DNA from: a virus
Taxonomy: Duplodnaviria; Heunggongvirae; Uroviricota; Caudoviricetes
DNA length: 64,000 nt
IMG/VR virus record: IMGVR_UViG_3300033153_011579
Direction: 5' to 3' (one strand)
The translations under genes were made by a program, and so were the position numbers. Below, in pieces: positions 24,216-51,648 of the stretch (positions within the stretch are counted from its first letter, which is position 1; each line of letters begins with the position of its first letter). A model generated the notes under the pieces. That model did not search any database, had not been told where the DNA came from, and saw only the letters and a program-made list of their open reading frames with translations.

Positions 24216-24217
24216 CG

Positions 24218-34510: not shown

Positions 34511-34520
34511 CAGTTACCTC

Positions 34521-35146: not shown

Positions 35147-35147
35147 G

Positions 35148-35513
35148 TCAGTCACCTCCAAGCTTGAAGAGTGCGTCCATGAACCGCACGCCGGTCGAGA
35201 CGCACTTGAGCACGACCTTCGCTCCGTCCGACGGCAGCGTGTCGACCAGCTCGTCGAGAGCCTTGTAGTTGACACGGCCGGTCGCTGGGTCGAACGCAAT
35301 CTTTACCAGGCGCTCCTGATCCGGGGTCATCCCGGTATGGGTGTTCTTCTCGATGAGCTCGTCGTCTCTGATCGAAAACTCTCGACGAATCTCGGCGAGC
35401 TTCTGGGCCATGCTCGCCACCTCGTTCTCGGCACCCGGAGTCTGACTGTCGACGTGAGCCTTCAGCTTCTGGCAGAGGGCGACCGCCTGCTCTCTATTCA
35501 TCTTCGTCGGCAT
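35148..35513 (-). CDS. Hypothetical protein (121 aa)
   Basis: ORF. Confidence 0.5.
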   Translation of the reverse strand: MPTKMNREQAVALCQKLKAHVDSQTPGAENEVASMAQKLAEIRREFSIRDDELIEKNTHTGMTPDQERLVKIAFDPATGRVNYKALDELVDTLPSDGAKVVLKCVSTGVRFMDALFKLGGD

Positions 35514-35751
35514 CGGCCTCTTCTTCCTCGTCCTCCTCGTCCTTCTCGTCGTCGTCGGCCGGAGCGGAGTCCGAGCTCTCCTCGACGAGGAAGATCAGAG
35601 TCAGCGTGTCCGCCTCGGCGTCCATATGCGGACGCACCGAGCAGTTCTCAGGGATGTCCGAAAATTCTTTCTTCGCCGCGACGATCAGGATGTTGACCAT
35701 CTCTTCGGTGCTGAACTCGACCTCGTTTTGAGATGTTTTTCTACGAATCAT
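35494..35751 (-). CDS. Hypothetical protein with poly-acidic tail
   Basis: Start at internal ATG 35751. Confidence 0.4.
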   Translation of the reverse strand: MIRRKTSQNEVEFSTEEMVNILIVAAKKEFSDIPENCSVRPHMDAEADTLTLIFLVEESSDSAPADDDEKDEEDEEEEADADEDE

Positions 35752-35956
35752 TTTCTGTCTCCTCGGTGATGTCCTCACAGTTTTTCTCGGCCATCTGGCA
35801 GAGAGCACATCTTCTCGCCAACCCGTTTTCCTCGTTCAAGTGAAGCTCGAATAAAAAGCACGACCAGAAGGGAGCGTCGCCACCGCGCCACGGACATTTG
35901 GGGTCGCAGTGCTGCGCTGTCAAGGGGACGATCGGTAGAAGGATCCGCCCCATCAT
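35741..35956 (-). CDS. Small Cys-rich protein (71 aa)
   Basis: MMGRILLPIVPLTAQHCDPKCPW…CALC; ATGATGA overlap. Confidence 0.45.
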   Translation of the reverse strand: MMGRILLPIVPLTAQHCDPKCPWRGGDAPFWSCFLFELHLNEENGLARRCALCQMAEKNCEDITEETENDS

Positions 35957-36152
35957 CAATTGCCCTTGTCCCAGGCGTCCCAGATTTTCTGTGTTTTCTG
36001 AATCACCTCGCCGAGCTCGTCGATGGATTCGATCTCGTCGGGCTCGAGCTGGGACGGCCCGCTGATGAGTTGGAGTTGTGCCAAATGTGCAGCCATCAGG
36101 TTCACGCAGCCGTCGCGAATGAATTTGTTGATCATCGACCGCTTGCTGATCA
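35956..36152 (-). CDS. First gene of the leftward operon (65 aa)
   Basis: SD GAGAGGAAACACC-ATG adjacent to the divergent control region. Confidence 0.45.
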
Positions 36153-36465
36153 TGGTGTTTCCTCTCGCCGCGGAGCCATCTAGCCACACCGTTACCTACA
36201 TGTCAACACAGTGGCAAAAAAACTTAGCACTTGACAGGGTGGGAGAGATGGATACAGTGTGTGCAATGTATTCAGAGGTATCACACTGCACTCGCCACCA
36301 CCACGCAGTTGCTAATAGGTGCTCATATAAAGGATCACCTATTGTTGTAGCACAGGTGTGTGTAGTACGGCATGCTACATGTCCCTACCCACCCCCCCCT
36401 AAAAAACGAAAAAAAACGAGTAGTTTAAAAAAAACGATCACCTCCGGTCACGTTCAAAGGATTTT
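36153..36465. promoter_or_regulatory. Divergent AT-rich control region between the leftward and rightward operons
   Basis: Back-to-back TTGACA boxes (rc at 36203-36208 and + at 36230-36235). Hairpin AATAGGTG-N14-CACCTATT. GTAGCAC/GTAGTAC/GCTAC repeated half-sites. A poly-C/poly-A tract before the 36466 SD. Confidence 0.55.
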
Positions 36466-37026
36466 ATGAAAATGCATGAGCACAATTTCACAGTCCAGTT
36501 GCGCGATAAAGAAGGCGGGGTCCTCGCCGAGGTCATCACCACAGCGACCGCCATGCGCGCTGGTGAGAAAAAACGCCTGCTCGAAGGCGTTCCCGAGCTC
36601 GAGATGAAGCCCCCCGGCAGCCTTTTCGTCGGCGACACCCTCCTGCGAGATCAGGAAGTAGTCGACCACGAGGAAAAATTCGACATCTGGCTCGATGTGA
36701 AAGAGGTGTTCGACAAGGTCGAGGACGACCCCGACCGGCTACCCGGGAAAGTCTGCCACAACTGCTACATCTGGGACCACGCCGAGGGCAAGCGTATTTT
36801 CACGATGCCGACCCACCGGTACGACAACGGGTCCTTTGCGATGTACGAGGAGATCACCAAGGCCGTTTCTGCGAAAAACCACGCGCGGACCTTGACCCCC
36901 GACAACGTCGGCTACTGCTCGAGCCACCTGAAGCTCTGCGCCGAGTCGGGGGTCGCCTGCAAGAACTACGACCCGAAGCCGTGGATCGCTCGATTTCGTA
37001 ACTGGTGGATCAGGGCGTTCAGATAA
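36466..37026 (+). CDS. Hypothetical Cys/His-rich protein, first rightward gene (186 aa)
   Basis: SD AAAGGA; follows the AT-rich control region. Confidence 0.6.
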   Translation: MKMHEHNFTVQLRDKEGGVLAEVITTATAMRAGEKKRLLEGVPELEMKPPGSLFVGDTLLRDQEVVDHEEKFDIWLDVKEVFDKVEDDPDRLPGKVCHNCYIWDHAEGKRIFTMPTHRYDNGSFAMYEEITKAVSAKNHARTLTPDNVGYCSSHLKLCAESGVACKNYDPKPWIARFRNWWIRAFR

Positions 37027-37586
37027 TGACGGACTTCAAAACACGCCGGGGCGACATCCCCGTACGCACCGAGCAGGAGCTGCTCGATGAACACTGGGTC
37101 TGCGCCTTCTGCCACGAAAAAACCCACGGGCCCGACTGCACCCACTGCGGGTCGCCTCGTCAGGACGCCCTGATCGTCGTGCCCGACGGCGAGGTCGGCG
37201 AGGAGCTGATCGAACGTCTTCGCACCAACCGCCGCTGTGGACACTGCGTCTATTTTTCGCACCGCAAAGGCCAGGAAGAGATGAACTCCCCCAGGGAGCA
37301 ACTCTTCCTCAAGCTCATCAAAGAGATGGAGATGCGGGAGGTCGCCGCCAACATGGACTGGAAGCTCGCCGGACTCTGCGAGCAGTGGTCCGGTGGTCAG
37401 GAAGACCTCTTCATCACCTGCGCCAACTCCCCGGCGCGCTGTGCCAAGAAACACCTCGGCGATGTGCCGTACGCCGAGAAAGATCAGAACGTCGAGTGCC
37501 CCGCGTACAAACCCCGCGGTGGCGACGGCAAGGAGATCCGGTCGTATCGCATGGTCAAGAACTCCAGAACGGTGGGGACCGACTGA
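37026..37586 (+). CDS. Zn-binding protein (186 aa)
   Basis: CAFCHEKTHGPDCTHCG, CGHC; TAATG overlap. Confidence 0.55.
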   Translation: MTDFKTRRGDIPVRTEQELLDEHWVCAFCHEKTHGPDCTHCGSPRQDALIVVPDGEVGEELIERLRTNRRCGHCVYFSHRKGQEEMNSPREQLFLKLIKEMEMREVAANMDWKLAGLCEQWSGGQEDLFITCANSPARCAKKHLGDVPYAEKDQNVECPAYKPRGGDGKEIRSYRMVKNSRTVGTD

Positions 37587-37780
37587 TGCCACCCAAATCA
37601 AAGGTCGTGACGTATCCCTGGACGCCGCAAGACGAAGAGCGAATCTCGCGGATCACCCAGGGCCTCGAGAACCACCAGATGAACTTCTTCCCACCTGGAA
37701 AGCTCCCGAGGACGAAGCTCATCTACCTGCTGATCCATCGCGGTATGGAGGCGATCGAAAAGGAGCTCGGTCTTGATTAA
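37586..37780 (+). CDS. Hypothetical protein (64 aa)
   Basis: TGATG overlap; start relocated inside the 37385..37780 ORF. Confidence 0.45.
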   Translation: MPPKSKVVTYPWTPQDEERISRITQGLENHQMNFFPPGKLPRTKLIYLLIHRGMEAIEKELGLD

Positions 37781-38246
37781 TTTGGCATCGCCGCGTCAGG
37801 GTGCTCTGGCCGATCTTCTCTCCACTGGAGAGTTACTCCCGATGGTCCTGGTCGCCCTCGGCCTGGCGATCGTCATCACGTGCACCAGGGCCGGCTACCC
37901 GCTCCGCTTCCTGTGGTGCATGCTCTTCAACTTCCGCTTCACCAGGTGGCTCTGGAACCTCGTGCTCTGCCCTCACTGCTGCTCGTTCTGGACCGGCTTC
38001 GCCGTTGGGTATGCGGTCACGGGTGACTGGATAAAAACCATACAGATCGCCGTCACGGCGTGCGGCGTCATGTACGTGCTCCAGAAGACTTTCTCACGAG
38101 ACCGCATTGTCGCCGCCGACCGTGTCCACGGCGACAGGTGGGTCTTGGATGTTCGCGGCGTAGCGTTTGAACCCCCTGAGGATTTCGAAGAGATCCTCGG
38201 TATAAAAAACGGTTTGAAGGAGACTCCAGATGACGAAGATGGGTAA
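37773..38246 (+). CDS. Polytopic membrane protein (157 aa, probable TTG start)
   Basis: SD AAAAGGAG 7 nt upstream of TTG; three hydrophobic helices. Confidence 0.5.
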   Translation: MINLASPRQGALADLLSTGELLPMVLVALGLAIVITCTRAGYPLRFLWCMLFNFRFTRWLWNLVLCPHCCSFWTGFAVGYAVTGDWIKTIQIAVTACGVMYVLQKTFSRDRIVAADRVHGDRWVLDVRGVAFEPPEDFEEILGIKNGLKETPDDEDG

Positions 38247-40275
38247 ACAACTCGGGGAAGCACTCGAAAAGAGCTTCGACAGAACCATCAGGGATTTCAG
38301 AACCGAGAGCCGGTCCACCGGCACCACGGGCCTCGATGCGCTCGAGCAGCTCGGGAGGGAGTTCGAAACCGTCAGCGTCAACATACATAGGAAAAACGAG
38401 CACGGTAAGTACACCCTGTTCTCTCCACTCGAGGGCGTGGCCGTCGCCGACCTCCTGCAGCAGGGGTACGACGTCTTTTGCAAGAACGAGGGCGGCGAGG
38501 GCGACTACAAGGTGGAGGTTGTCATCCCGGCGAAGGAGCCGGGGAAGCCACCCGTCCGTCGCTGGGAGGGGCCGTTCATCGTGAGCGGCACGCCGCGGCT
38601 CGAGGTCTCCAAGACCGAGATGTCCAAGCAACAGAACAGTTTCGGATTTCCGTTCAACATGATGAGCGGCCTCCCCGCGAACACCGCCGCCGCCGGCAAC
38701 CAGGGAGGAGCTCCCTACGTCCGCGACCTGCTCCAGCAGATGAACAAGTCCTCCGAGAGCCAGAACAACATGGTGCAGCAGATGATGGGCCTCATGATGA
38801 TGAAGGACATGATGCCCGGCGCGGACCAGAAGAAGAACGGCGAGACCGACGCCAATAACCCGGCCGTGCTCGCGCTCCAGACCCAGGTCAGCGAGGTGAC
38901 CCGACGGCTCGACGACGAGCGCCGACGGTCGGAGGACGACCGCCGATCTCGAGATCAGGAAAAGCGTATCGAGGCCGCCGAGCGACGCGCCGAGGAGAAC
39001 CACCGAGAGGTACTCCGCCTGCTCGACAACAACAAGACCACCGAGACCATCGAGCTCATGAAGCTCCAGCGCGACGGCCAGGGCTCCAAGGACGACTCGT
39101 TCCTCAAGCTGATGGCCATGAACCGTGAGGATTCCAACCAGTCCCAGGCGCGGTTCGACGGGCTCATGATGAAGCTGTTCGACAAGCCAGACGGCGTCGA
39201 CCAGAGCTCGAAGGTCATGGGCATGATGATGGAGTCGTCCGTCGCCCAGCTCAACATGATGACCCAGATCGCCGCGAGCGGTCTCGCCGGAGGTTCCGAA
39301 AACCCGTGGATCGACCTCGTCCGCGAAGGGGTCGGCACGGTCAAGGAAGGTTTCAAGGGCGTCCTCGCCATGAAGTACGGCATCGACATGGACGGCGACG
39401 ACGAGGACGGCGAAGATGGCGAAGAGGCCCCGGCCCCCCTCACCCAGCACGTCCCGCCGGCGAAGATCGAAGCGCGGACCGACCCGGAGACCGGAGAGGC
39501 GGTACCGGAAGAAGCACAGACCACCGTCGACCAGCCGGCTCCAGAAGAAGACACCGAGGACGAAATCCCGCAGAGCGCGCTCGACGACGCCGACGAGCTC
39601 AAAAAATACATCCTCACCGACGACGAGCTCACGGGGCTCGCGCAAAACCGGCAGACGCAAAAAATCCTCAAGGCCGTCGAGGAGAAGGACTATCCGCAGG
39701 CCACCGCCCGGATCTTCGAGCGCGTCCGTGGCAAGTCGCCCGTCCACAAGCGCTGGCTCAAAGCCCCCGGCCCGCTCACCGCGCAGATCCTCACGCACTT
39801 CGGGCTCACGCACCACATGTTCGCGATGACCCAGAACCTGATCGACTTCATCGGCCATATGAACGGCGGTGGAAATCCGAACGACTGGTCCGAGAACTAC
39901 AAGCCGGTCAAGGAAAAGAAGGAGAGCAAGATGAAACCCGACAACCCCGCAGCCACCGAGCTGGGCGTGACCATGGGCGAGCGCAAGGAAGGCGAGGACT
40001 ACGACGCGTCGAAGGTTCCCGACGATCCCAAGCTGGCCGAGCTGGCCGAGCAGCAGCGAGCTCTGCGCGAAGAGAAGAACGTGCTCGACCAGATGGAGCA
40101 GATCGAAGAGAACATCGGGTTGCTCAAGGAAGGGAAGATCGACCCGCAGCGCGCGGCGTTCCTGCGCACGGAGAAGAAGCTCCCGGCGTCCGGAGAAGAG
40201 GACGAGGCGCTCAAGGAGATCGCAAAGCTGCGGCACGACATAAAGAAGCAGCAGGCCGAGGAGGGGAGGGCTTAA
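38230..40275 (+). CDS. Large acidic, Met-rich, coiled-coil protein (681 aa)
   Basis: Protein-like composition, Met-rich blocks MMGLMMMKDMMPG and MGMMMESSVAQLNMMTQ, long acidic linker. The antisense 722-aa ORF has artefact composition. Confidence 0.7.
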   Translation: MTKMGKQLGEALEKSFDRTIRDFRTESRSTGTTGLDALEQLGREFETVSVNIHRKNEHGKYTLFSPLEGVAVADLLQQGYDVFCKNEGGEGDYKVEVVIPAKEPGKPPVRRWEGPFIVSGTPRLEVSKTEMSKQQNSFGFPFNMMSGLPANTAAAGNQGGAPYVRDLLQQMNKSSESQNNMVQQMMGLMMMKDMMPGADQKKNGETDANNPAVLALQTQVSEVTRRLDDERRRSEDDRRSRDQEKRIEAAERRAEENHREVLRLLDNNKTTETIELMKLQRDGQGSKDDSFLKLMAMNREDSNQSQARFDGLMMKLFDKPDGVDQSSKVMGMMMESSVAQLNMMTQIAASGLAGGSENPWIDLVREGVGTVKEGFKGVLAMKYGIDMDGDDEDGEDGEEAPAPLTQHVPPAKIEARTDPETGEAVPEEAQTTVDQPAPEEDTEDEIPQSALDDADELKKYILTDDELTGLAQNRQTQKILKAVEEKDYPQATARIFERVRGKSPVHKRWLKAPGPLTAQILTHFGLTHHMFAMTQNLIDFIGHMNGGGNPNDWSENYKPVKEKKESKMKPDNPAATELGVTMGERKEGEDYDASKVPDDPKLAELAEQQRALREEKNVLDQMEQIEENIGLLKEGKIDPQRAAFLRTEKKLPASGEEDEALKEIAKLRHDIKKQQAEEGRA

Positions 40276-40511
40276 TGGTCAACCACCAGGACCTGATGAA
40301 GCAGGCCGAGGCCATCTTCATCTTCTTCGAGCGAGAGGTGGAAAAATACGAGCGCGACCAGGGCGCACAGATGCTGACCGACAAGCCCACCAGAGAGGTG
40401 TGTCGGAAGACGCTGGTCGCCGCCGGGAACTACATCGCGAGAGCTATCGACGACCTCACCAAGATCGACGAGCACGAAGAGCTGCAGAAGAAGCAGCATC
40501 AGGAAGGGTAA
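40275..40511 (+). CDS. Hypothetical protein (78 aa)
   Basis: TAATG overlap; real part of the Arg-rich 39306..40511 ORF. Confidence 0.5.
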   Translation: MVNHQDLMKQAEAIFIFFEREVEKYERDQGAQMLTDKPTREVCRKTLVAAGNYIARAIDDLTKIDEHEELQKKQHQEG

Positions 40512-40512
40512 A

Positions 40513-40872
40513 ATGAAAGTCATCATCCACCCGCTTGGCGAGCGCGTACTCGTCGAGCCGTTCGACCTCGAAGGGGCGACCGCCGCCGGCGTCATCATCC
40601 CGCTCTCCAAGGGCTCCCACAAGCTCGGGAAGATAGTCGCCGTCGGCGACGACCTCGAGCCGTTGTGTGAAGAGACCGAAGCGGAGAGCGAGCTCGACGA
40701 CGACGAGGAGCTCGACCCCGTGAGCTCTTGGGGCCCCCCCCCTGTCGCGGTCGGCGACAGCATCATCTACAACCGCTTCCTCCCGCTCATCCTCCCCACC
40801 GATGATTCGAAAATCGAGAAGCACATGGTTGCGCTCGAGGACATCCAGGGCCGGGTCGAGATCGAAAAGTGA
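40513..40872 (+). CDS. groES-like: GroES-like co-chaperonin (Hsp10 family) with an acidic insert
   Basis: IHPLGERVLVEPFDLEGATAAGVIIPLS…KIVAVGDD…VAVGDSIIYN…IEKHMVALEDI matches the GroES pattern (PLgDRVLV…T.gGI.iP…G.VvAvG). Confidence 0.6.
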   Translation: MKVIIHPLGERVLVEPFDLEGATAAGVIIPLSKGSHKLGKIVAVGDDLEPLCEETEAESELDDDEELDPVSSWGPPPVAVGDSIIYNRFLPLILPTDDSKIEKHMVALEDIQGRVEIEK

Positions 40873-40874
40873 AC

Positions 40875-41207
40875 ATGTTCGAAAAACCGGTGGTCGTCGG
40901 GCCGCTGAGAGAGGAAGAGAAAATGTCAGCAGATAGAACCATCGACGCGGGGAAGGCGCGAGAGGCTGCCAAGGAGATCGGGGGACTCTTCTACGAGACC
41001 AAGGTGCAGACCAAGAAGCAGGCACGTGAGGTCGCACTCAGGATGGCCGATATGCCGATCGACTGGCACGGTATCATCGAGATCGTCGAGGACGGCCTCT
41101 TCGTGCACCACGGCTCACTCGAGACGGTAAAGTTGCTCCAGATTGCCGAGGGTGCCTGGACCGACCAGACGCTGGCCCTCACGTTTGTCGGCAAGCTGTT
41201 CGACTGA
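40875..41207 (+). CDS. Hypothetical protein (110 aa)
   Basis: ATG 40875 just after the GroES-like stop. Confidence 0.5.
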   Translation: MFEKPVVVGPLREEEKMSADRTIDAGKAREAAKEIGGLFYETKVQTKKQAREVALRMADMPIDWHGIIEIVEDGLFVHHGSLETVKLLQIAEGAWTDQTLALTFVGKLFD

Positions 41208-41299
41208 TCCTCAGCGAAAAACACCAATTCACGAAAAAAAAGAAGTCGTCCCAACACCCTGATAATCATGGGCAAACTCCTTAACAAGCCCATGTGTGC

Positions 41300-41348
41300 A
41301 AAAAAACACACTTGACTACAATGTGAGATATAGATTACACCAACACAC
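41300..41348 (+). promoter_or_regulatory. AT-rich intergenic patch with a TTGACT box upstream of the transglutaminase-like gene
   Basis: TTGACTACAATGTGAGATATAGATTACACC; the -10 assignment is ambiguous. Confidence 0.25.
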
Positions 41349-41951
41349 ATGAACCCAGAGGTGCATCGTGGGGTCACGAGCATCAAGCAACGACTCGACC
41401 TGATAGCACAAAGGATCGATGTCAGCGTTCGTAGACCCCAGAAATCCTTAGACGGACGGCAGTTCATGCTCAAGGATTTCACTCACTTCATCGTTCGCGG
41501 TACCCCACAACACGGCCCAGCATCAGAAGAAGAGCCCATCAACGCGGTGTTCAGCTACGTGAAAAACAACATCGAGTACCGCCAGGATCCGACGGGCTAC
41601 GACTACTACATGGGTGCCGGGCGCATCATCAACTCCAAGGCCGGCGACTGCGACGACCTCACCATCATCATCTGCGCGATGCTCGACAGCATCGGCTACC
41701 GCACTGGAGCTCGGGTGATCTCTCCCGACGGGCACCAGTGGCACATCTACTCGCTCGCCGGGGTCGACCCTGCGTTCAACGGGGAGCCCTCGAGAGTCGT
41801 ACCGCTCGACGCTGCCTACGGTGACGAGCCCGGCTGGGAGCCGTCGAACAGATTTCGAAAGTACGAGCAGCAATGCACCTTCTTTAAGGGCAAGGTCGTT
41901 GGCTACAAGGTCGTCCGGGACGGCGGGTCCTGGTTCAATTTTTTCAGGTAG
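41349..41951 (+). CDS. Transglutaminase-like cysteine-protease-fold protein
   Basis: GDCDDLTIIICAMLDSIGYRTGARVI (G.C.D…G.pAR core) followed by His (GHQWHIY) and Asp. Confidence 0.5.
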   Translation: MNPEVHRGVTSIKQRLDLIAQRIDVSVRRPQKSLDGRQFMLKDFTHFIVRGTPQHGPASEEEPINAVFSYVKNNIEYRQDPTGYDYYMGAGRIINSKAGDCDDLTIIICAMLDSIGYRTGARVISPDGHQWHIYSLAGVDPAFNGEPSRVVPLDAAYGDEPGWEPSNRFRKYEQQCTFFKGKVVGYKVVRDGGSWFNFFR

Positions 41952-41961
41952 GAGGGTACCA

Positions 41962-42927
41962 ATGGCCGTCAGGAATCCCAGTCTCGCCGCGCAGAACATG
42001 CCGCCCGAGTTTCGTTTCAAACCGACCAAAATCTATTACGACAAGCCGCCACGGAACACCGTCTACGAGGACGCCCTGGGGTCCGGTGGGAAAGCCCCGA
42101 TCGACCCGCGCCTCCAGCGGCTGCTCGACCCGATCACCTGGAAGTCCGACCGCTCGCCGGTCGCCAACATGCAGCAGAGCGCGCACGGCGTGATCTCGAA
42201 ACTCATCCACGAACACAAGCACTCGCAGACCCCCCGCACCATCATCCGCAAGAACGTCCCGAAGATAACGATCAACACGAGGCACGAAGAGCAGCCCGGA
42301 GCTCGCCAGCCGCTCATGCGCGGCAACCGCACCCCGCAGCAGGTGGCGCGCGGTGTGAAGACCACGCACAGGCCCGTCAGGCCGGGTCCGGACATCAACA
42401 AGATCAACGCCATCCTCGACCCACGGCGTGGCTTCAAGCCCGGGTCGGCCGAGGCGTACCGCAACCTCCTGATGCAGGCCACCCCGGAGTCGGTCGAGCA
42501 GATCGCCGCGAAGGCGGAGCGCGCTGCAGAAAAGCGCGAGGAGCCCACGACGTCCATCGGCAGTCACCAGTTCACCGACGCGGAGCTCCAGGCGGCCCCC
42601 CCCGGTCTGATCAAGGTGATGGTCGACCGCGAACTTCAACGACGCACCAAGAAGAACAAGCCGCGCGTGATGTTCGACCCGAGAGAATCTCGCGGTCTGT
42701 CGACACACGGGCAGTACACCACCATCCCGCGACCTGGTCTCGTCGAGTTCGAGCCCGGGAAGTTCATGCGGCCCGAGCAGCTCGGCATGACGGCAAACGA
42801 AGCGGTGGTCGCGATGGATTCCAACGGTCAGCCGAAGCCGAAGGTCGGCGGCGGGTCGATCCTCCTCGGCCTCGGTGCCGCGGCTCTCGCGATCCTCGGC
42901 CTCTCGATGGTAGTGGGTGGGAGATAG
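41962..42927 (+). CDS. Virion-region protein with a C-terminal TM (321 aa)
   Basis: SD GGTAGGAGGGTACCA-ATG; C-terminus ILLGLGAAALAILGLSMVVGG. Confidence 0.55.
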   Translation: MAVRNPSLAAQNMPPEFRFKPTKIYYDKPPRNTVYEDALGSGGKAPIDPRLQRLLDPITWKSDRSPVANMQQSAHGVISKLIHEHKHSQTPRTIIRKNVPKITINTRHEEQPGARQPLMRGNRTPQQVARGVKTTHRPVRPGPDINKINAILDPRRGFKPGSAEAYRNLLMQATPESVEQIAAKAERAAEKREEPTTSIGSHQFTDAELQAAPPGLIKVMVDRELQRRTKKNKPRVMFDPRESRGLSTHGQYTTIPRPGLVEFEPGKFMRPEQLGMTANEAVVAMDSNGQPKPKVGGGSILLGLGAAALAILGLSMVVGGR

Positions 42928-42928
42928 C

Positions 42929-43279
42929 GTGGGCGACGTCATCACACTGGACGGCCTCGACTCCACGACACTCTCCGGCACGAAGTGCGGGAAGCTCGTG
43001 TCGATCAACGCTCCGATGCTCGGGCAGAGCGTCCAGGTGTGCGAAACTGACGTCAGCCGCATGGCAGGCCTCGCGGGCGTCAAGCGCCGTCCTGGCCGCC
43101 CCAAGAACACCACCGTCAAGAACGGAGCGCGCAAGCCCCGGTTCAAGGGCTGCGGCTCTACCAAGGTAGTGAAGACCAAAAAAGGGAAGAAGATCTGTAA
43201 GTGTGCAGATCGTGGAAACGGGCAGATCCTGCCCCATAAATCCTGTGGGTTGGGAAAGCCCACGAAAAGGAGTCGATGA
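42929..43279 (+). CDS. Basic Cys-containing protein (GTG start)
   Basis: ORF; KR-rich. Confidence 0.4.
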   Translation: MGDVITLDGLDSTTLSGTKCGKLVSINAPMLGQSVQVCETDVSRMAGLAGVKRRPGRPKNTTVKNGARKPRFKGCGSTKVVKTKKGKKICKCADRGNGQILPHKSCGLGKPTKRSR

Positions 43280-43398
43280 TGGCCAGACGGAAGAAGAAGA
43301 AGGGTATCCGCACTGCTTCGGGTCGCTGCCGGTTCGGCAAGGTCAAGAAGGGCCGCCGGAAGGGCGCTTGCCTCAAGTCCAAGCGCGCCCGCAAGTAG
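43276..43398 (+). CDS. Poly-basic peptide (40 aa), not in ORF track
   Basis: SD AAGGAG 4 nt upstream; MMARRKKKKGIRTASGRCRFGKVKKGRRKGACLKSKRARK*. Confidence 0.5.
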   Translation: MMARRKKKKGIRTASGRCRFGKVKKGRRKGACLKSKRARK

Positions 43399-43471
43399 CC
43401 TTCGCCTGCTCTTTTAGCGGGCGGAACACACCGCAGCAGGCGAGTGATCCGCCCTGCGGAAGGAGGAGAAC

Positions 43472-43582
43472 ATGAAGAAGGGTACGTGCAAGCAGAACAA
43501 GAACAAACGCGGAGCCAAATGGGTCTGCCGGTCGAAGAAAACCGGCAGGGTCAAATTCTCCAAAACAAAGCTCTACAAGTGA
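43472..43582 (+). CDS. Poly-basic peptide (36 aa), not in ORF track
   Basis: SD GGAAGGAGGAGAAC-ATG; MKKGTCKQNKNKRGAKWVCRSKKTGRVKFSKTKLYK*. Confidence 0.5.
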   Translation: MKKGTCKQNKNKRGAKWVCRSKKTGRVKFSKTKLYK

Positions 43583-43590
43583 GCTCAACG

Positions 43591-44154
43591 ATGACGGGGT
43601 TTCCCGTCGAGGAGGACCAGAAGATGCGAAAGCGCAGCGATGACGCGGTCTCCGGCAGGGGACCACAGGACGACCAGTTCGTGGAAAAAAACGACGACAC
43701 CGACGTTGGTGCCTACACCATCGAGCCTCTGGCGGGAGTAATGGGCCTCGGGGCCAAAGACTTCCTTCCGCCCGCGGCCGGTGGCCTCGGCTACTTCGTC
43801 GCAACGTGGCTGGTGAACCGCTTCGGCGGGAACATCTCCGGCTACCTGACCCGGTTCGCTCCTCTCGTGGGCGGAGTGCTCGGGGCCTTGCTCAACGGCG
43901 TGGCCTTGCCCTTCGTCGCCAAGGGAAACGGGAAGAAGATGGTGGCGCAAGCCGCCGCCACTTCGCTGACCATGGGGATCATGTCCCAGATCCTCCGCGA
44001 GACCTCTGGCCTCGGAGCAGTCGTCATCGACCGGATCGCAGGAGCCGGTCCGATGGGTGCGCTCCCCGGCCCGACAGTCCACGGCGCAGGGACGATGCCC
44101 AGGCAGATCCGACAGACACTCGACAAGAGCGTCTATGGAAACTCGTGGGGCTAG
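43591..44154 (+). CDS. Gly/Ala-rich putative virion protein (187 aa)
   Basis: ORF, hydrophobic Gly-rich core. Confidence 0.5.
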   Translation: MTGFPVEEDQKMRKRSDDAVSGRGPQDDQFVEKNDDTDVGAYTIEPLAGVMGLGAKDFLPPAAGGLGYFVATWLVNRFGGNISGYLTRFAPLVGGVLGALLNGVALPFVAKGNGKKMVAQAAATSLTMGIMSQILRETSGLGAVVIDRIAGAGPMGALPGPTVHGAGTMPRQIRQTLDKSVYGNSWG

Positions 44155-47945: not shown

Positions 47946-48112
47946 GAAAAAAGAAACTGTCGGCCGCGCAGAAGATGAAGCTCGCCATGCTCAACAAGGT
48001 GTTCGACATGGCGGACGCGTTCGTCAAGGGCGCGGGAGCTCCGCGCAAGAAGGCCACTAGTGGCCACCTCGCCGGCGGCGTGGCCCCAGCCCCGTGCGGG
48101 AAGTGCGACTGA
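47939..48112 (+). CDS. Small basic protein (57 aa), not in ORF track
   Basis: MVRKKKLSAAQKMKLAMLNKVFDMADAFVKG…; contains the GGCCACTAGTGGCC palindrome. Confidence 0.45.
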   Translation: MVRKKKLSAAQKMKLAMLNKVFDMADAFVKGAGAPRKKATSGHLAGGVAPAPCGKCD

Positions 48113-49047
48113 TGGAAGAAACGCCACAATTCCTCGACTGGAACAAGCCGATCCCGGTGGGGGTCTGGCGCGTGGCGATGTTCGTGTTCAACGACCGGGT
48201 GATGCAGGGCTATGGCGACGAGTATGTCGCCAACTACATCACGTACTGGGGGGCGAGGGTCGGTCTCGACGTCTCGAAAAACCATATCGTCAAGGGCGCG
48301 TACAAGGTTCAACTCGGCGCGGACCCAGCAACCCCGTGGTTCGTGTACGTGAGGAACACCGTGAAGGGCCTCACGTCGGTGGAAGTCTTCAAGACGACGA
48401 AGATGCTGGTGTGGTTCTTCGAGCAAGCCACCGAGGGCTGGATGGCCAACTACCTCGAGACGGCCCAGGGGCATCTCGGTGCGGGCATCAGGCAAGCCAA
48501 CCCACCGCAGTGGGCGACCTCCGATTCGTTTCTGCTCGCCGAGCGCTGGTACGGCGTGGCCACCATCTGGAAAGACGTCGCGCCCAACCCGAACTTGATA
48601 GAGGACAAGCTCCAAAAAATGGGGCTCGACATCTGGAGCGGTCCGGGGGGCGTCGTCTACAAGGACGACAATCCACGGGTCATGATCCTGTCGCTCTACA
48701 CGGGCGATAAGCCCCGGCGGGTGGGGGACATCCAAAAGGCGATTGGTGCCAAGGCTCTCGTCGTCGACCTCAACCATTTTGAAAAGAACTACACGAAGGA
48801 CAAGTCGGACAAGATCTACGAGGCGTCCGGGGCGATGCTCGAGACGATTGGCGATATGGCGGTTGGGATCTCCGAAGGTCTCGAGAACGCCACCGACCTC
48901 GTACCCACGGTGTTCGACATCCTCGGCTGGATCGCGAAGTGGGGACCGTTCATCGCGGTCGGCGCGGTCGCGCTCTACTTCGGCCCTCGGGTGCTGACGG
49001 CAGCCAAGAAGAGCCGAGGCGAGTGGAAGAAGGCGAGGGCGGCATGA
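48112..49047 (+). CDS. Virion-region protein with a C-terminal TM (311 aa)
   Basis: TGATG overlap; C-terminus GWIAKWGPFIAVGAVALYFG plus basic tail. Confidence 0.55.
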   Translation: MEETPQFLDWNKPIPVGVWRVAMFVFNDRVMQGYGDEYVANYITYWGARVGLDVSKNHIVKGAYKVQLGADPATPWFVYVRNTVKGLTSVEVFKTTKMLVWFFEQATEGWMANYLETAQGHLGAGIRQANPPQWATSDSFLLAERWYGVATIWKDVAPNPNLIEDKLQKMGLDIWSGPGGVVYKDDNPRVMILSLYTGDKPRRVGDIQKAIGAKALVVDLNHFEKNYTKDKSDKIYEASGAMLETIGDMAVGISEGLENATDLVPTVFDILGWIAKWGPFIAVGAVALYFGPRVLTAAKKSRGEWKKARAA

Positions 49048-49364
49048 CGAGCAAGCAAAAGATCATCGCGGGAGTCGCCGCGGGAGCCGCCGCCGCCCTG
49101 ATCACCGGTCTCGTCATCTGGCGCTCCCGGAAGAGGCTCGCGCTCGCCGCTCTTAAATACGAAGTCGATCCTTTATATAAGGCCCCCGCCGGCCTCAAGA
49201 CGCTGAAGCTCAGGAGCGTGCCGAAAGCCGCGGTGGTGGCCGTTAGAAAAATACACGGCAAGTTCAAGCTGCACCAGGCGTTCAGGGACACCGACGCCAT
49301 GTACTTGGTAGAAATCCACGAGGGGTTCGACCCGCTCGTGTTTCGAGTGAGGAGAAAGACATGA
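49044..49364 (+). CDS. N-terminally anchored small membrane protein (106 aa)
   Basis: IIAGVAAGAAAALITGLVIW TM; ATGA overlap. Confidence 0.5.
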   Translation: MTSKQKIIAGVAAGAAAALITGLVIWRSRKRLALAALKYEVDPLYKAPAGLKTLKLRSVPKAAVVAVRKIHGKFKLHQAFRDTDAMYLVEIHEGFDPLVFRVRRKT

Positions 49365-50419
49365 GAGGCAATCCCTACGATTGGATCAACCAGACTCGCG
49401 AGCACAAGGTGTTCGGAACTCGGCACTACCCGCTGATCGCCGGGCTCGCTGGGAAGTCCAACGGCTACCCGGCGTTCGCCATGCAGGTCCAGAGCCTGCC
49501 TGGTCTGCAGCGCAACCAGTACATCCGCGAGTGGCGGCAGTGGTTCGGGCGGCACGGCAAGAGCTGGGAGAAGATGGGCTGCCTCAAGGAAAACCGTCTC
49601 GGCCAGTACACCGACCGCTACAGGTGGACCGAGTGGAAGCCGGGCCTCGGTGCCTTCGGGTCGTTCGATACGAGCGTCGGGATGGGCTGGACCGCGATGG
49701 GGAACCCCGGCGCGAACTTCATCCCCAAGACGAACGTCATCCCGATCCCGGGGTACCCCGGCTGGGTACGCCAGATCGGCATGCTGAAGTACGACAAGGT
49801 CGGCGACGCGTGGCCCTGGTGTCTCGTGTACGCCAAGACCGACGGCTCGCAGTACGTCTGGTACTACAAGTACTCGGCGTCTCAGCCTCCGTTCCCCGGA
49901 GTCCCGCAGCCGACCGGCGGTGGCGACGACATCGGCACCGCGATCCCGAGCTCGACGAAGGCCGCGGTCACCGCGCTCCAGAAGGCGCTCAACCTCGCCG
50001 ACGCCAGGGACTCGCACAACAGGAAGCTGAACGAGGACGGCAACATCGGGCCCGACACGTGCTACGCGGCGTACCAGTTCAAGTCGGAGATGGGGCTCGG
50101 TACCGGAGCTGGGCTGCCCGCGGAGTTCTGGCTCTACCTCGGCCTGCCCGAGTCGTACGTCAAGTACAAGAACATCTGCTCGGCCTACTCGAGTGGAACG
50201 GAACCGAAAAAAACGACCAAACAACCGGGGCCGCTACCGGAGGAAGAGACTCCCGACCCGACGGTCAAGGCGGGCGACGCACCGCTCTCGATCTCGAAGG
50301 CGGGCCTCGGTGGCAAGAAGATGCTCCTGCTCGGCGGGGCCCTCCTGTTCGGGGGGCTCGTCGTGCTCGGTCGTAAGAAGAAGAAGCGCGGAAAACGCTC
50401 CAAGAAGAGGAGAAAATAA
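49361..50419 (+). CDS. Putative cell-wall hydrolase with a peptidoglycan-binding domain and C-terminal TM plus poly-basic tail
   Basis: PG_binding_1-like TAIPSSTKAAVTALQKALNLADARDSHNRKLNEDGNIGPDTCYAAYQFKSEMGL; C-terminus LLLGGALLFGGLVVLGRKKKKRGKRSKKRRK. Confidence 0.5.
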   Translation: MRGNPYDWINQTREHKVFGTRHYPLIAGLAGKSNGYPAFAMQVQSLPGLQRNQYIREWRQWFGRHGKSWEKMGCLKENRLGQYTDRYRWTEWKPGLGAFGSFDTSVGMGWTAMGNPGANFIPKTNVIPIPGYPGWVRQIGMLKYDKVGDAWPWCLVYAKTDGSQYVWYYKYSASQPPFPGVPQPTGGGDDIGTAIPSSTKAAVTALQKALNLADARDSHNRKLNEDGNIGPDTCYAAYQFKSEMGLGTGAGLPAEFWLYLGLPESYVKYKNICSAYSSGTEPKKTTKQPGPLPEEETPDPTVKAGDAPLSISKAGLGGKKMLLLGGALLFGGLVVLGRKKKKRGKRSKKRRK

Positions 50420-50988
50420 TGCCGTCCAAGAAGAGCAAGAAGAAGCGCGGGAAGAAAAAAGGGAGTCCGCTCCCACTCGTGATCGCCGCGGCGGCCATCG
50501 GTCTCGCCCTCTTCTTCGTGAGCAAGAAGGGGTCCGCCGGAGTGCCCAAGGACATCCCCAAGGGGAAGGGTCCCGGGAAGGCACCTCCCGCAGGAGCGCC
50601 GGCCAGCGCGCGCCCAGCTCCCGAGCTCACCGCGGCTCCGGACCCCGTGCCGACGGGAGAAGCGATCGACGACGCGCCGGCACCGACCAGTTCCGGCGAC
50701 ACCGGGCCGAGCGACCCGCTGAAGGCGGCCGGCTGGAAATGGGGCTTCATGGGATCTGTCGACCCCGACGAGGCATGGTCCGTCGGCGAGGTCATCAGCC
50801 CTTCACAGCTGCCGTTTGGTGCGGACAACCTGATCCAGGTGAGCCCGCTCGACACGGTCGAGGTGGCCTACTACCTCGCGTCGCAGGAGATGCTGACGCC
50901 TGGCTACTACGTGGTCGGGCAGATCAACTCGGAGGGCTTCTCCTTCGAGCCGCCCTTCTGGGGCATCATCCACGTCTGGCAGGAGTAG
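50419..50988 (+). CDS. Membrane-anchored Pro/Ala-rich protein (189 aa)
   Basis: N-terminal KKKRGKKKG plus TM. Confidence 0.5.
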   Translation: MPSKKSKKKRGKKKGSPLPLVIAAAAIGLALFFVSKKGSAGVPKDIPKGKGPGKAPPAGAPASARPAPELTAAPDPVPTGEAIDDAPAPTSSGDTGPSDPLKAAGWKWGFMGSVDPDEAWSVGEVISPSQLPFGADNLIQVSPLDTVEVAYYLASQEMLTPGYYVVGQINSEGFSFEPPFWGIIHVWQE

Positions 50989-50994
50989 GGAAAG

Positions 50995-51648
50995 ATGCCG
51001 TCGCCGCACAGCTATTACAGCTACCTGAAGATCTACAACGGGTCTGTGGGAGAATCGCCGCGCAAGGGGGCTTTTTACATCCCCAAGCATGGCGAGGCAC
51101 TCACGAGGATCGCCAAGCAGGCGTACGGGTTCGTGACCAGTACGCTCGCCGGCGTCCAGATGATCAACAGATCAGCATGGAATCGCAATGCGGCGAAGCA
51201 GGGTGCGTTCAAGTATCGCGTGACGTCGACTTCTTGCAAGTCGAAGATGGCCAACCCGGACAACGCGCTCACTACCCAGGGCTACAACAAGGGGGCCTGG
51301 CTCGCGCTGTGCCCGCCTTACCCGCTGTTCTGGATCCCGGCGAAGGCGGGCCAGATGCCGGAAGACCTCGCGCCTCCGGACGCCCCCCCCGGTCCCCCCG
51401 GAGCGACCTTCAAGGCACCGCCGAAGTCGCGTGGTGGAAGAGTGACGACGAAGAAGAGAGCCGGGGTCAAGACCACCAGGCAATCGCCCGGTCCGGGGAC
51501 GCAGTCGCCCTACTACCAGGGCCAGGGGACGTCGGGCTCGAGGAAGACGGCTCTCGCCGGCGTCGGGTCGCCGTGGATGCTGCTCGCCCTCGCGTTGCTC
51601 GCAGCCGGAGGATACGTATGGTACAGGCGGCGGAACAAGAAGAAGTAG
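50995..51648 (+). CDS. Protein with C-terminal TM and basic tail (217 aa)
   Basis: …WMLLALALLAAGGYVWYRRRNKKK. Confidence 0.5.
   Translation: MPSPHSYYSYLKIYNGSVGESPRKGAFYIPKHGEALTRIAKQAYGFVTSTLAGVQMINRSAWNRNAAKQGAFKYRVTSTSCKSKMANPDNALTTQGYNKGAWLALCPPYPLFWIPAKAGQMPEDLAPPDAPPGPPGATFKAPPKSRGGRVTTKKRAGVKTTRQSPGPGTQSPYYQGQGTSGSRKTALAGVGSPWMLLALALLAAGGYVWYRRRNKKK

What the first reader, a model, noticed from the sequence alone, without database searches (positions are those of the whole stretch)
43276..43582. Two adjacent poly-basic micro-proteins (40 and 36 aa) in the structural region
- Both are absent from the ORF track and both have good SD sequences.
- They are about 45% Lys/Arg with paired Cys residues, reminiscent of protamine or histone-like DNA-condensing virion proteins, or of ribosomal-protein mimics.
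Basis: seen in the sequence. Interest (0 to 1): 0.5.

Follow-up and report, generated by a model that had tools for sequence, protein, structure and literature searches.

The report
Two conserved poly-basic phage micro-proteins
Two tiny, extremely positively charged genes (39 and 36 amino acids) in an uncultured, phage-like genome are real and conserved under selection in the few known relatives, and they most likely coat or neutralise nucleic acid, perhaps the phage's own DNA, though no function has been demonstrated.

Summary
**Observation confirmed.** Both ORFs are at the stated coordinates; B most likely starts at 43279 (39 aa, not 40).
- **Composition:** 51% and 42% Lys+Arg, no acidic residues, two Cys each.
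- **Coding:** gene-like codon usage only in their own frames. No comparable ORF arose in 200 composition-matched simulations. IMG's gene caller had already called both.
- **Conservation:** three divergent metagenomic relatives keep the layout A (116 aa, Cys-rich, AT-hook-like GRP motif) → B → C → ~175-aa hydrophobic protein.
- **Selection:** window vs L005 gives dN/dS 0.27 for B, with 10 synonymous and 0 amino-acid changes in its first 17 codons. Both Cys are invariant.
- **Coupling:** A/B stop and start lie within 4 nt in all four genomes. A conserved hairpin hides C's strong Shine-Dalgarno.

**Function is inferred only.** Pfam, NCBIfam, PHROGs, 50,697 phage genomes and 1.84 billion protein representatives gave no homolog. 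They are not ribosomal-protein homologs and do not look like amphipathic lytic peptides.

**Best reading (about 0.4):** stoichiometric nucleic-acid-binding, charge-neutralising peptides, possibly virion core proteins.

**Caveat:** the "structural region" label could not be verified, because no capsid, portal or terminase is recognisable.

The parts
41962..42927 (+). p321: upstream neighbour, basic (pI 10.4) with a C-terminal TM-like segment. The true start is M48 of the 368-aa ORF.
   Evidence: 64% identical to the partial homolog at the end of relative L002; that alignment fixes the start at 41962. TM-like segment at residues 294-312.
42929..43279 (+). A116: Cys-rich basic protein with an AT-hook-like motif (KRRPGRPKN); first gene of the A-B-C trio.
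   Evidence: Homologs P0007, P0008 and P0009 at 77%, 64% and 53% identity. G-R-P and six Cys are invariant. dN/dS 0.23 against L005. No Pfam or PDB sequence match.
43267..43272 (+). Shine-Dalgarno (AAGGAG) of B, 6 nt before the ATG at 43279.
   Evidence: Sequence; duplex energy -8.2 kcal/mol.
43279..43398 (+). B39 micro-protein MARRKKKKGIRTASGRCRFGKVKKGRRKGACLKSKRARK (net +20). The start overlaps A's TGA stop (TGATG).
   Evidence: In-frame codon score +0.40. Homologs in L005 (38 aa, complete), L006 (34 aa, cut off) and a 40-aa gene call on the P0008 contig. dN/dS 0.27, with 10 synonymous and 0 nonsynonymous changes in the first 17 codons. T, S, G, R and both Cys invariant.
43406..43468 (+). 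Spacer RNA hairpin whose outer stem pairs with the Shine-Dalgarno of C; a probable translational-coupling element.
   Evidence: MFE -38.2 kcal/mol, z -3.7, 0 of 200 shuffles fold as well. Consensus fold with L005 has 19 pairs, 4 one-sided pair-preserving changes and 0 broken pairs. No Rfam family.
43460..43468 (+). Shine-Dalgarno (AAGGAGGAG) of C.
   Evidence: -11.7 kcal/mol, third strongest of 65 genes; conserved as GGAAGGAG in L005.
43472..43582 (+). C36 micro-protein MKKGTCKQNKNKRGAKWVCRSKKTGRVKFSKTKLYK (net +15).
   Evidence: In-frame codon score +0.55. L005 has MKKGTCKKN... before its contig ends, with 2 synonymous and 1 conservative change. A 33-aa gene is called at the same position on the P0008 contig. 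The exact protein is on record as an IMG call.
43624..44154 (+). D176: conserved downstream neighbour with an acidic N-terminus and a Gly-rich hydrophobic, TM-like body.
   Evidence: A 172-aa gene follows the micro-genes on the P0008 contig. TM-like segment. Second-strongest SD in the window.
50372..50466 (+). Possibly related: poly-basic tails next to TM segments. The C-terminus of p352 is ...LGRKKKKRGKRSKKRRK and the N-terminus of p189 is MPSKKSKKKRGKKKGS followed by a TM segment.
   Evidence: Translations and TM scan. Similar but shorter tails occur in p217 and p317.

Best explanation
B39 and C36 are real, translated, poly-cationic peptides made in fixed proportion with the upstream Cys-rich, AT-hook-like protein A116.

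**Production.** A to B is coupled by a stop/start overlap. B to C is coupled by a hairpin that hides C's ribosome-binding site until a ribosome terminating at B's stop melts it.

**Most likely activity (inferred).** They bind the phosphate backbone of nucleic acid, most plausibly the phage's own dsDNA. There they would act as charge-neutralising, condensing 'core' peptides during packaging or inside the particle. The conserved Cys pair in each would close a basic loop, or cross-link peptides by disulfide or metal once outside the reducing cytoplasm, as in Cys-containing protamines.

**Shown:** coding status, conservation, purifying selection, the coupling architecture, and the extreme charge that is maintained between relatives.

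**Inferred:** nucleic-acid binding, DNA rather than RNA as the target, virion location, and the role of the Cys residues.
For: **Coding and selection**
- Codon usage is gene-like only in frame, and 0 of 200 simulations gave a comparable ORF.
- dN/dS is 0.27 for B, against 0.23 for the neighbouring gene A and 2.5 and 0.8 in the shifted frames. The first 17 codons carry 10 synonymous and 0 nonsynonymous differences.

**Synteny in three relatives**
- P0008 contig: 122 aa, then 40 aa, 33 aa and 172 aa.
- L005: a 38-aa B homolog and the start of C.
- L006: a B homolog cut off by the contig end.

**Charge is conserved while sequence drifts**
- Net charge is +20, +18 and at least +12. The C-terminal half of B has dN/dS about 1.4, yet both Cys and the T-x-S-G-x-R-C motif are invariant. 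This pattern is typical of electrostatic nucleic-acid binders.

**Neighbour and coupling**
- A116 has an invariant GRP core flanked by basic residues, plus six invariant Cys.
- The A/B gap is at most 4 nt in all four genomes.
- The hairpin that hides C's SD is stable and maintained. C's SD ranks 3rd of 65.

**Context and precedent**
- The same operon has several membrane-anchored poly-basic tails and lectin-domain proteins expected of a virion module.
- Small basic DNA-binding virion proteins exist in phiX174 (protein J, PMC13386984), adenovirus (VII, V, Mu; PMC4189039) and other eukaryotic dsDNA viruses (PMC6163548).
Against: - There is no experimental or homology evidence for DNA binding or virion location.
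- The 'structural' nature of the operon is only circumstantial. No capsid, portal or terminase is recognisable.
- Established knowledge: tailed dsDNA phages normally package naked DNA with a motor and need no condensing proteins.
- B's SD is only average, which does not point to bulk expression.
- The AT-hook resemblance is at motif level only. There is no Pfam AT_hook hit, canonical RGRP occurs in 1 of 4 homologs, and GRP[KR] strings are common in out-of-frame translations of this GC-rich DNA.
- Poly-basic peptides bind RNA, acidic proteins and anionic lipids equally well.
Confidence: 0.4

Rival explanations
1. RNA- or ribosome-binding peptides: convergent analogs of tiny basic ribosomal proteins (bL34, bL36, bS22, Thx) or RNA chaperones that modulate translation or protect phage transcripts.
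For: Poly-basic peptides bind RNA as readily as DNA. C is under an RNA-structure-based translational control.
Against: No match to any ribosomal-protein model in Pfam (E<=10) or NCBIfam (E<=1). No homolog among 1.84 billion representatives. The genes sit inside a long late-looking operon and are coupled to a protein with a DNA-type (AT-hook-like) motif.
Confidence: 0.15
2. Electrostatic assembly cofactors that bind acidic virion proteins or the anionic face of a membrane rather than DNA, acting as small scaffolds or 'glue'.
For: Downstream proteins are strongly acidic: E236 pI 4.5, p300 pI 4.6, p276 pI 5.3 and p605 pI 4.5. Six proteins in the operon have single TM-like segments, several with poly-basic tails. 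D176, the next gene, has an acidic N-terminus and a hydrophobic body.
Against: Nothing shows that the particle contains a membrane. The coupled neighbour A116 carries a DNA-type motif.
Confidence: 0.15
3. Host-directed basic peptides that compact or coat the host nucleoid, or titrate nucleic-acid-sensing defences, for takeover or anti-defence.
For: Generic nucleic-acid affinity would also act on host DNA. The phage encodes other host-interaction genes: a response-regulator receiver, an SPFH protein and a thioredoxin.
Against: The genes lie in the middle of the long + operon with lectin-domain and TM proteins, not in the early-looking blocks. Tight stoichiometric coupling to neighbours suggests a complex, not a diffusible effector.
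Confidence: 0.1
4. Membrane-active cationic peptides used in lysis or entry, like the phiKT gp28 'disruptin' or host-defence peptides.
For: Small, cationic and orphan, as gp28 is (10.1101/515445). A Cys pair closing a loop also occurs in beta-hairpin antimicrobial peptides (from my own knowledge).
Against: The helical hydrophobic moment is 0.41 and 0.46, against 0.89 for LL-37. Only about 22% of residues are hydrophobic, and net charge is +15 to +20 against +7 for gp28 (10.1101/515445). They are not next to lysis genes: the only recognisable muralytic gene (SLT, 20609-21295) is 22 kb away on the other strand.
Confidence: 0.08
5. Not functional proteins: chance ORFs, or upstream ORFs whose translation, not their product, regulates downstream genes.
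For: Very short. C's translation is clearly tied to an RNA structure. No homologs outside this lineage.
Against: 0 of 200 simulations gave a comparable ORF. Codon usage is frame-specific. Purifying selection acts on the amino-acid sequence, with 10 synonymous and 0 nonsynonymous changes in B's N-terminal half. Cys residues and charge are conserved across 53-77% relatives. The frame offset of B relative to A differs between genomes (2, 1, 1, 0), so B is not a frameshift or read-through extension.
Confidence: 0.04

Closest known systems
Microviridae DNA-binding protein J (phiX174)
   Same: A phage-encoded peptide of a few dozen residues (about 38 aa by my recollection). It is very basic with no acidic residues and glycine-rich. 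It coats the DNA and accompanies it into the capsid (PMC13386984). As I recall its sequence, it even contains an RPGRP string like that of A116.
   Different: J serves a 5.4-kb ssDNA genome in a T=1 capsid, whereas this is a dsDNA-sized genome of at least 64 kb (82-kb contig). J has no Cys. There is no sequence homology. Here there are two separate peptides plus a larger partner.
Adenovirus core proteins VII, V and Mu (and protamine-like proteins of other eukaryotic dsDNA viruses, e.g. baculovirus P6.9)
   Same: A set of several basic proteins of different sizes that bind and compact dsDNA inside an icosahedral particle (PMC4189039; PMC6163548). Mu is a very short basic peptide. The idea of a multi-component 'core' matches the A+B+C trio.
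   Different: Those are eukaryotic viruses. There is no homology, they are Arg-rich rather than Lys-rich, and Mu and VII are produced by proteolytic processing, whereas B and C are separately translated genes. Virion location is unproven here.
Cys-containing protamines (sperm nuclear basic proteins)
   Same: About 50% basic residues combined with conserved cysteines. In mammalian protamines these lock condensed DNA through disulfides or zinc (my own knowledge).
   Different: Protamines are Arg-dominated, whereas B and C have Lys at or above Arg. They are an unrelated lineage, and any cross-linking here is pure inference.
Small basic ribosomal proteins (bL36, bL34, bS22, Thx)
   Same: Length of 25-46 aa, strongly basic, and some (bL36) have Cys ligands (sequences from memory).
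   Different: No match to any of these families in Pfam or NCBIfam. bL36 has a CxxC...C...H zinc site, whereas B and C each have only two Cys, 12-13 residues apart.
phiKT gp28 disruptin (cationic lysis peptide)
   Same: A small, cationic, orphan phage peptide (10.1101/515445).
   Different: gp28 is an amphipathic helix with net charge +7 that sits beside the endolysin and holin. B and C are non-amphipathic, carry +15 to +20, and lie far from any lysis gene.

Membership tests
Microviridae J protein (Pfam Microvir_J) | Sequence homology to J | tested here: not met
   No Pfam family for B or C even at E<=10; no homolog in 1.84 billion representatives.
Microviridae J protein (Pfam Microvir_J) | Short (about 20-40 aa), highly basic, no acidic residues | tested here: met
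   39 and 36 aa, 51% and 42% K+R, 0 D/E.
Microviridae J protein (Pfam Microvir_J) | Encoded by a small ssDNA microvirus genome | tested here: not met
   The window is 64 kb and the source contig is 82,351 nt.
Viral protamine-like / core DNA-condensing proteins (functional class, not one homologous family) | Small (<15 kDa), strongly basic protein encoded by a dsDNA virus | tested here: met
   Composition. The phage-like nature of the element rests on DUF5131/Gp37-Gp68, GP88, SLT and an integrase-like ORF.
Viral protamine-like / core DNA-condensing proteins (functional class, not one homologous family) | Present in the virion bound to the genome | not testable with these tools
   Needs virion proteomics; the lineage is known only from metagenomic contigs.
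Viral protamine-like / core DNA-condensing proteins (functional class, not one homologous family) | Binds and condenses dsDNA | not testable with these tools
   Needs EMSA or condensation assays with synthetic peptides.
Viral protamine-like / core DNA-condensing proteins (functional class, not one homologous family) | Arginine-dominated composition | tested here: not met
   B has 11 K and 9 R; C has 12 K and 3 R.
Small bacterial ribosomal proteins (bL36, bL34, bS21, bS22, Thx) | Match to the family HMM | tested here: not met
   Pfam at E<=10 and NCBIfam at E<=1 give no family.
Small bacterial ribosomal proteins (bL36, bL34, bS21, bS22, Thx) | bL36-type zinc site (CxxC...C...H) | tested here: not met
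   Each peptide has only two Cys, spaced 13 (B) or 12 (C) residues apart, and no His.
Disruptin / cationic amphipathic lysis peptide (phiKT gp28) | Predicted amphipathic alpha-helix | tested here: not met
   Maximum helical hydrophobic moment is 0.41 and 0.46 against 0.89 for LL-37; 8-13% Gly.
Disruptin / cationic amphipathic lysis peptide (phiKT gp28) | Located in the lysis cassette | tested here: not met
   Neighbours are A116, p321 and D176. The SLT gene is at 20609-21295 on the minus strand.
AT-hook DNA-binding motif (applies to neighbour A116, not to B or C) | G-R-P core flanked by Arg/Lys | tested here: met
   G56, R57 and P58 are invariant in 4 homologs with basic flanks.
AT-hook DNA-binding motif (applies to neighbour A116, not to B or C) | Canonical R-G-R-P and a match to the Pfam AT_hook model | tested here: inconclusive
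   RGRP occurs only in P0008, with PGRP, AGRP and GGRP in the others. There is no Pfam hit, but that model is too short to score reliably. The motif is also common in off-frame translations.

The most novel reading that the evidence does not exclude
A previously unrecognised lineage of bacterial dsDNA viruses whose virion genes match nothing known. It would package its roughly 82-kb genome as a nucleoprotein core built from these parts:
- an AT-hook-like Cys-rich protein;
- two free protamine-like peptides locked by Cys pairs;
- poly-basic tails of membrane-anchored proteins, implying an internal membrane.

This would be the first 'chromatinised' dsDNA phage particle and a prokaryotic counterpart of the adenovirus or chlorovirus core.
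Probability: 0.15. Interest if true: 0.85.

Novelty: new variant of a known kind. Interest (0 to 1): 0.6.

Why it matters
**Why it would matter.** The textbook view is that bacterial dsDNA viruses pack naked DNA, with counter-ions and sometimes internal or ejection proteins. Dedicated small condensing proteins are known from eukaryotic dsDNA viruses and from ssDNA microviruses. A conserved, selected, stoichiometrically produced pair of about 50% basic Cys-pair peptides next to an AT-hook-like protein would suggest the same solution evolved independently in a bacterial virus.

**Why it is testable.** The peptides are short enough to synthesise.

**Broader lessons.**
- Genuine, selected genes of under 40 codons are missed by length-thresholded ORF tracks.
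- This lineage has no recognisable capsid, portal or terminase by sequence and only about four relatives in billions of proteins, so it deserves attention in its own right.

Tried and rejected
**Searches for relatives that found nothing**
1. Megablast and tblastn against 50,697 phage genomes with 12 kb of DNA, the 681-aa protein, 2.8 kb of concatenated downstream proteins, and A+B+C.
2. IMG/VR scans with p681, E236, the p681 profile and the A profile.
3. Two GTDB genome scans.
4. One JGI metagenome scan, which gave a single truncated locus, L004.

**p681 relatives.** Contigs L001-L004 all end before the micro-ORFs. L002 stops about 440 nt short.

**Concatenated flanks.** The 368+176+236 aa query found nothing. 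That search also missed L002's 64%-identical partial homolog, so its silence is weak evidence.

**Paralogy of A, B and C.** Not significant beyond composition, z<1.

**Family and structure searches**
- Pfam, PHROGs and NCBIfam on about 60 proteins gave no virion hallmark.
- PDB sequence searches gave nothing.
- AlphaFold of p300 without an alignment gave pLDDT 28 and is unusable.

**Other checks**
- Rfam on 42-45 kb found nothing relevant.
- Exact-sequence contig look-ups for E236, P0006 and P0010 were not on record.
- A first dN/dS run used L005 coordinates off by one base (B and C parts). It was discarded and redone.

**Ideas rejected:** a frameshift or read-through extension of A (frame offsets differ between genomes); an intrinsic terminator after B or C (no T-run).
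Full report

The + strand carries ORFs at 43276-43398 (40 aa) and 43472-43582 (36 aa), exactly as described.
- B is MMARRKKKKGIRTASGRCRFGKVKKGRRKGACLKSKRARK.
- C is MKKGTCKQNKNKRGAKWVCRSKKTGRVKFSKTKLYK.
- K+R content is 50-51% for B and 42% for C. Neither has an acidic residue, and each has exactly two Cys.

B is preceded by AAGGAG (43267-43272). The spacing is 3 nt to the first ATG and 6 nt to the second, at 43279. The relatives start at the position of the second ATG, and IMG's pipeline called the 39-aa product. I therefore take 43279 as the start, giving B39. C is preceded by AAGGAGGAG, the third-strongest anti-SD duplex among 65 genes. B's SD is about average, at rank 32.

A codon-usage log-likelihood trained on 24 long genes of the window gives +0.40 bits per codon for B and +0.55 for C. 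The training mean is 0.44, and all five other frames score negative. In the whole window, on both strands, no other ORF combines this composition with a 6-nt SD. None of 200 second-order Markov simulations produced a single K-rich basic ORF of at least 30 aa. Within the intergenic gaps of this operon, B and C are the only basic micro-genes.

'Absent from the ORF track' reflects only a length threshold, because both exact proteins exist in the public collection as IMG gene calls on an 82,351-nt contig.

**2.

The lineage is extremely rare. The large neighbour p681 (38230-40275) has only four relatives among 5.8 billion proteins, and all of their contigs stop short of the micro-ORFs. The upstream ORF was more useful. 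Its true product is A116 (42929-43279), and it has homologs at 77%, 64% and 53% identity.

What follows the A homolog on each relative's contig:
- **P0008 contig (64%).** An independent gene caller placed genes of 122 aa (A), 40 aa, 33 aa and 172 aa in series, with gaps of 3, 48 and 43 nt. This is the window's architecture. No DNA is available for this contig.
- **L005 (77%).** The A homolog is followed by AAGGAGG and then MRRKKKKGIRTASGRCRYGKVKVGPRRGQCRKQKAARR (38 aa). A 75-nt spacer follows, then GGAAGGAG and MKKGTCKKN..., where the contig ends.
- **L006 (53%).** The A homolog is followed after 1 nt by MAKRVKTPSGPRCQSAKGKFIRNSACGLKKKKTK..., cut off by the contig end.

Nei-Gojobori counts for the window against L005 give dN/dS of 0.27 for B in its own frame. 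The adjacent gene A gives 0.23, and the two shifted frames of B give 2.5 and 0.8. The first 17 codons of B carry 10 synonymous and 0 nonsynonymous differences. C's nine readable codons carry 2 synonymous changes and 1 conservative change.

Across the three B homologs, T-x-S-G-(x)-R-C and the second Cys are invariant. The C-terminal half of B drifts (dN/dS about 1.4) but keeps its charge, with net +20, +18 and at least +12. The frame of B relative to A differs between genomes (offsets 2, 1, 1, 0), so B is an independent cistron and not a recoding extension of A.

Evidence for C is thinner than for B.

**3. Anatomy of the locus**

A116, B39 and C36 form a tightly coupled trio.
- **A to B.** Stop and start overlap as TGATG in the window, and lie 4, 1 and 3 nt apart in the relatives.
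- **B to C.** The 73-nt spacer folds at -38.2 kcal/mol, with z = -3.7 and 0 of 200 shuffles folding as well. In the consensus fold with L005, the outer stem pairs CUGCUC... with the SD of C. There are 19 pairs, and all four substitutions at paired positions preserve pairing (UG/CG twice, GC/GU twice), with none broken.
- **Limits and inference.** Two sequences cannot prove covariation, and no compensatory double change is seen. The 5' arm starts 8 nt after B's stop codon, within reach of a terminating ribosome. I infer that C is translated mainly when B is, which would fix the B:C ratio.
- **Rfam** has no family here.

A116 has an invariant G-R-P core with basic flanks (KRRPGRPKN in the window, RRRGRPKN in P0008) and six invariant Cys. 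This resembles an AT-hook, the minor-groove DNA-binding motif. The resemblance is at motif level only:
- There is no Pfam hit.
- Only one homolog has canonical RGRP.
- GRP[KR] strings are frequent in off-frame translations of this GC-rich DNA.

A, B and C are not demonstrably paralogous (z<1).

**4. Context**

The window looks like a phage or prophage. It is about 60% GC, and its genes fall into three strand blocks. Recognisable genes are:
- a weak integrase-like ORF;
- DUF5131 (the phage Gp37/Gp68 family);
- GP88;
- an SLT transglycosylase;
- a thioredoxin;
- a PurA-like enzyme;
- a response-regulator receiver;
- an SPFH protein.

The long + operon (36.5-64 kb) that holds the finding also encodes:
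- a Cpn10-like protein and a transglutaminase-fold protein, both conserved in relatives;
- two ConA-like lectin-domain proteins;
- a GDSL esterase.

This fits a virion or host-recognition module. However, no capsid, portal, terminase, tail or tape-measure protein is recognisable by any of the following:
- Pfam, PHROGs or NCBIfam;
- tblastn against 50,697 phages;
- PDB sequence search;
- fold search of an AlphaFold model of p681.

A single-sequence model of the capsid candidate p300 failed, with pLDDT 28. 'Structural region' is therefore plausible but unverified.

One feature may bear on function. Six proteins of the operon have a single TM-like segment at a terminus, and several of these carry poly-basic tails next to it:

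| Protein | Poly-basic tail |
|---|---|
| p352 | ...LGRKKKKRGKRSKKRRK (C-terminus) |
| p189 | MPSKKSKKKRGKKKGS, then TM (N-terminus) |
| p217 | TM, then YRRRNKKK (C-terminus) |
| p317 | TM, then AAKKSRGEWKKARAA (C-terminus) |

**5. What it most likely does**

The following are shown:
- Both ORFs are genes.
- Both are under selection.
- Their charge and Cys residues are what is conserved.
- They are produced in a coupled series with a Cys-rich protein that carries a DNA-type motif.

The rest is inferred. Peptides with +15 to +20 net charge in 36-39 residues, about 10% Gly and few hydrophobic residues should be disordered polycations whose generic ligand is a phosphate backbone.

I commit to the following reading, at about 0.4. 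They are nucleic-acid-binding, charge-neutralising peptides acting on the phage genome during packaging or within the particle. Together with A116, and possibly the membrane-anchored basic tails, they would form a core. The Cys pairs would close basic loops or cross-link the peptides after release from the reducing cytoplasm.

Rough scale, by my own arithmetic: an 82-kb genome carries about 164,000 negative charges. Neutralising 10% of these would need roughly 470 copies of each peptide, the same order as adenovirus core proteins.

Rivals, with approximate probabilities:

| Rival | Probability | Main points |
|---|---|---|
| RNA or ribosome binding | 0.15 | Composition is similar to Thx, bL34 and bL36, but there is no homology |
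| Electrostatic assembly cofactor for acidic virion proteins or a membrane | 0.15 | Acidic neighbours and TM proteins in the operon |
| Host-nucleoid or anti-defence effector | 0.10 | Generic nucleic-acid affinity, but located mid-operon |
| Disruptin-like membrane-active peptide | 0.08 | Hydrophobic moment is half that of LL-37, charge far above gp28's +7, and no lysis genes adjacent (10.1101/515445) |
| Non-functional or merely regulatory ORF | 0.04 | Contradicted |

**6. Comparison with known systems**

By function, the closest bacterial-virus analog is the phiX174 J protein. It is a very small basic DNA-binding protein that coats the DNA and travels with it into the capsid (PMC13386984). 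The closest dsDNA analogs are the adenovirus core proteins VII, V and Mu (PMC4189039) and the protamine-like proteins of other eukaryotic dsDNA viruses (PMC6163548). Chloroviruses combine an internal membrane with DNA-associated proteins (PMC3281028).

Membership in any of these families fails on homology. The J comparison also fails on genome type, and the protamine comparison on Arg dominance. My literature searches found no report of free protamine-like micro-proteins in a dsDNA phage. The library is incomplete, so this is not proof of absence.

**7. Novelty and verdict**

As sequences, B and C are orphans restricted to a lineage of about four metagenomic relatives. As a kind, small basic viral nucleic-acid-binding peptides are known. 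The variant here is new in combining the following:
- a dsDNA-sized bacterial virus;
- two separately translated peptides with conserved Cys pairs;
- hairpin-mediated coupling;
- an AT-hook-like partner.

Interest is 0.6. The finding is solid as real, conserved micro-genes in a very unusual genome, and the hypothesis is moderately surprising and cheap to test. The mechanism remains unproven, and the virion context is unverified.

Noticed in passing
window 36466-64000 (+ operon) and the whole window: No terminase, portal, major capsid, tail or tape-measure protein is recognisable. About 60 predicted proteins were tested with Pfam, PHROGs or NCBIfam. 2.8 kb of concatenated protein was searched by tblastn against 50,697 phages, and a p681 model was fold-searched. 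The lineage has only about four relatives in 5.8 billion proteins. It may be a structurally novel virus group, or its hallmark genes may lie in the 18 kb of the source contig outside the window.
   Followed up: partly
window 26259-27368 (-): A 369-aa adenylosuccinate-synthetase-like protein (Pfam 1e-39, covering only the first two thirds of the profile). It scores far below the NCBIfam cut-offs for both PurA (110 against 395 bits) and PurZ (39 against 300 bits). It could be a divergent PurZ-like enzyme for 2-aminoadenine DNA, but no MazZ, DatZ or DpoZ partners were recognised among its neighbours.
   Followed up: partly
window 49361-51648 (+): p352, p189, p217; also p317 at 48094-49047: These proteins have a single terminal TM-like segment flanked by long poly-basic tails, for example ...LGRKKKKRGKRSKKRRK and MPSKKSKKKRGKKKGS followed by a TM segment. 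This far exceeds an ordinary positive-inside bias. It could mark an internal virion membrane facing DNA.
   Followed up: partly
window 43406-43468 (+): A stable hairpin (-38 kcal/mol, z -3.7) hides the Shine-Dalgarno of C36. Pairing is preserved in relative L005 through four one-sided changes. It matches no Rfam family.
   Followed up: yes
window 22193-22555 (-): A phage-encoded thioredoxin (Pfam 2e-16). This may be relevant to redox handling of the many conserved cysteines in A116, B39 and C36, or it may be unrelated.
   Followed up: no
window 40513-40872 and 41349-41951 (+): A Cpn10/GroES-like protein and a transglutaminase-core (Cys-protease-fold) protein lie between p681 and p321. Both are conserved in relatives L002 and L003. 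They are possible assembly chaperone and maturation protease candidates.
   Followed up: partly
window 62928-62999 (+): A further 23-aa poly-basic micro-ORF (MDTRVPKKLKRTRIAAKIKKRRR, GC3 0.74, weak SD) ends directly before the gene that starts at 63000. It was not examined for conservation.
   Followed up: no
window 9983-10465 (+): A 160-aa ORF with a strongly poly-basic N-terminus (MHGLGRRGNRRKKRLKKHRGRTPARV) and no family match.
   Followed up: no
window 41821-42927 (+): The mechanical 368-aa ORF is over-extended. Alignment with the L002 homolog puts the real start at the ATG at 41962 (321 aa). That ATG is preceded by one of the stronger SDs in the window.
   Followed up: yes
window 23469-24611 (-), 17597-18598 (-), 32840-33775 (-), 16484-17191 (-): Auxiliary genes: DUF5131 (phage Gp37/Gp68, with a weak radical-SAM hit), a response-regulator receiver-domain protein, an SPFH/Band-7 protein, and an Lcl_C-domain protein.
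   Followed up: no
window 34161-42136 = locus L003: A 7,966-nt JGI contig (sample 3300033143) is 99.8% identical to this part of the window, so the same phage was sampled independently. Relative L002 (ENA ERZ25073485) is 65-73% identical over window 37853-42834.
   Followed up: yes
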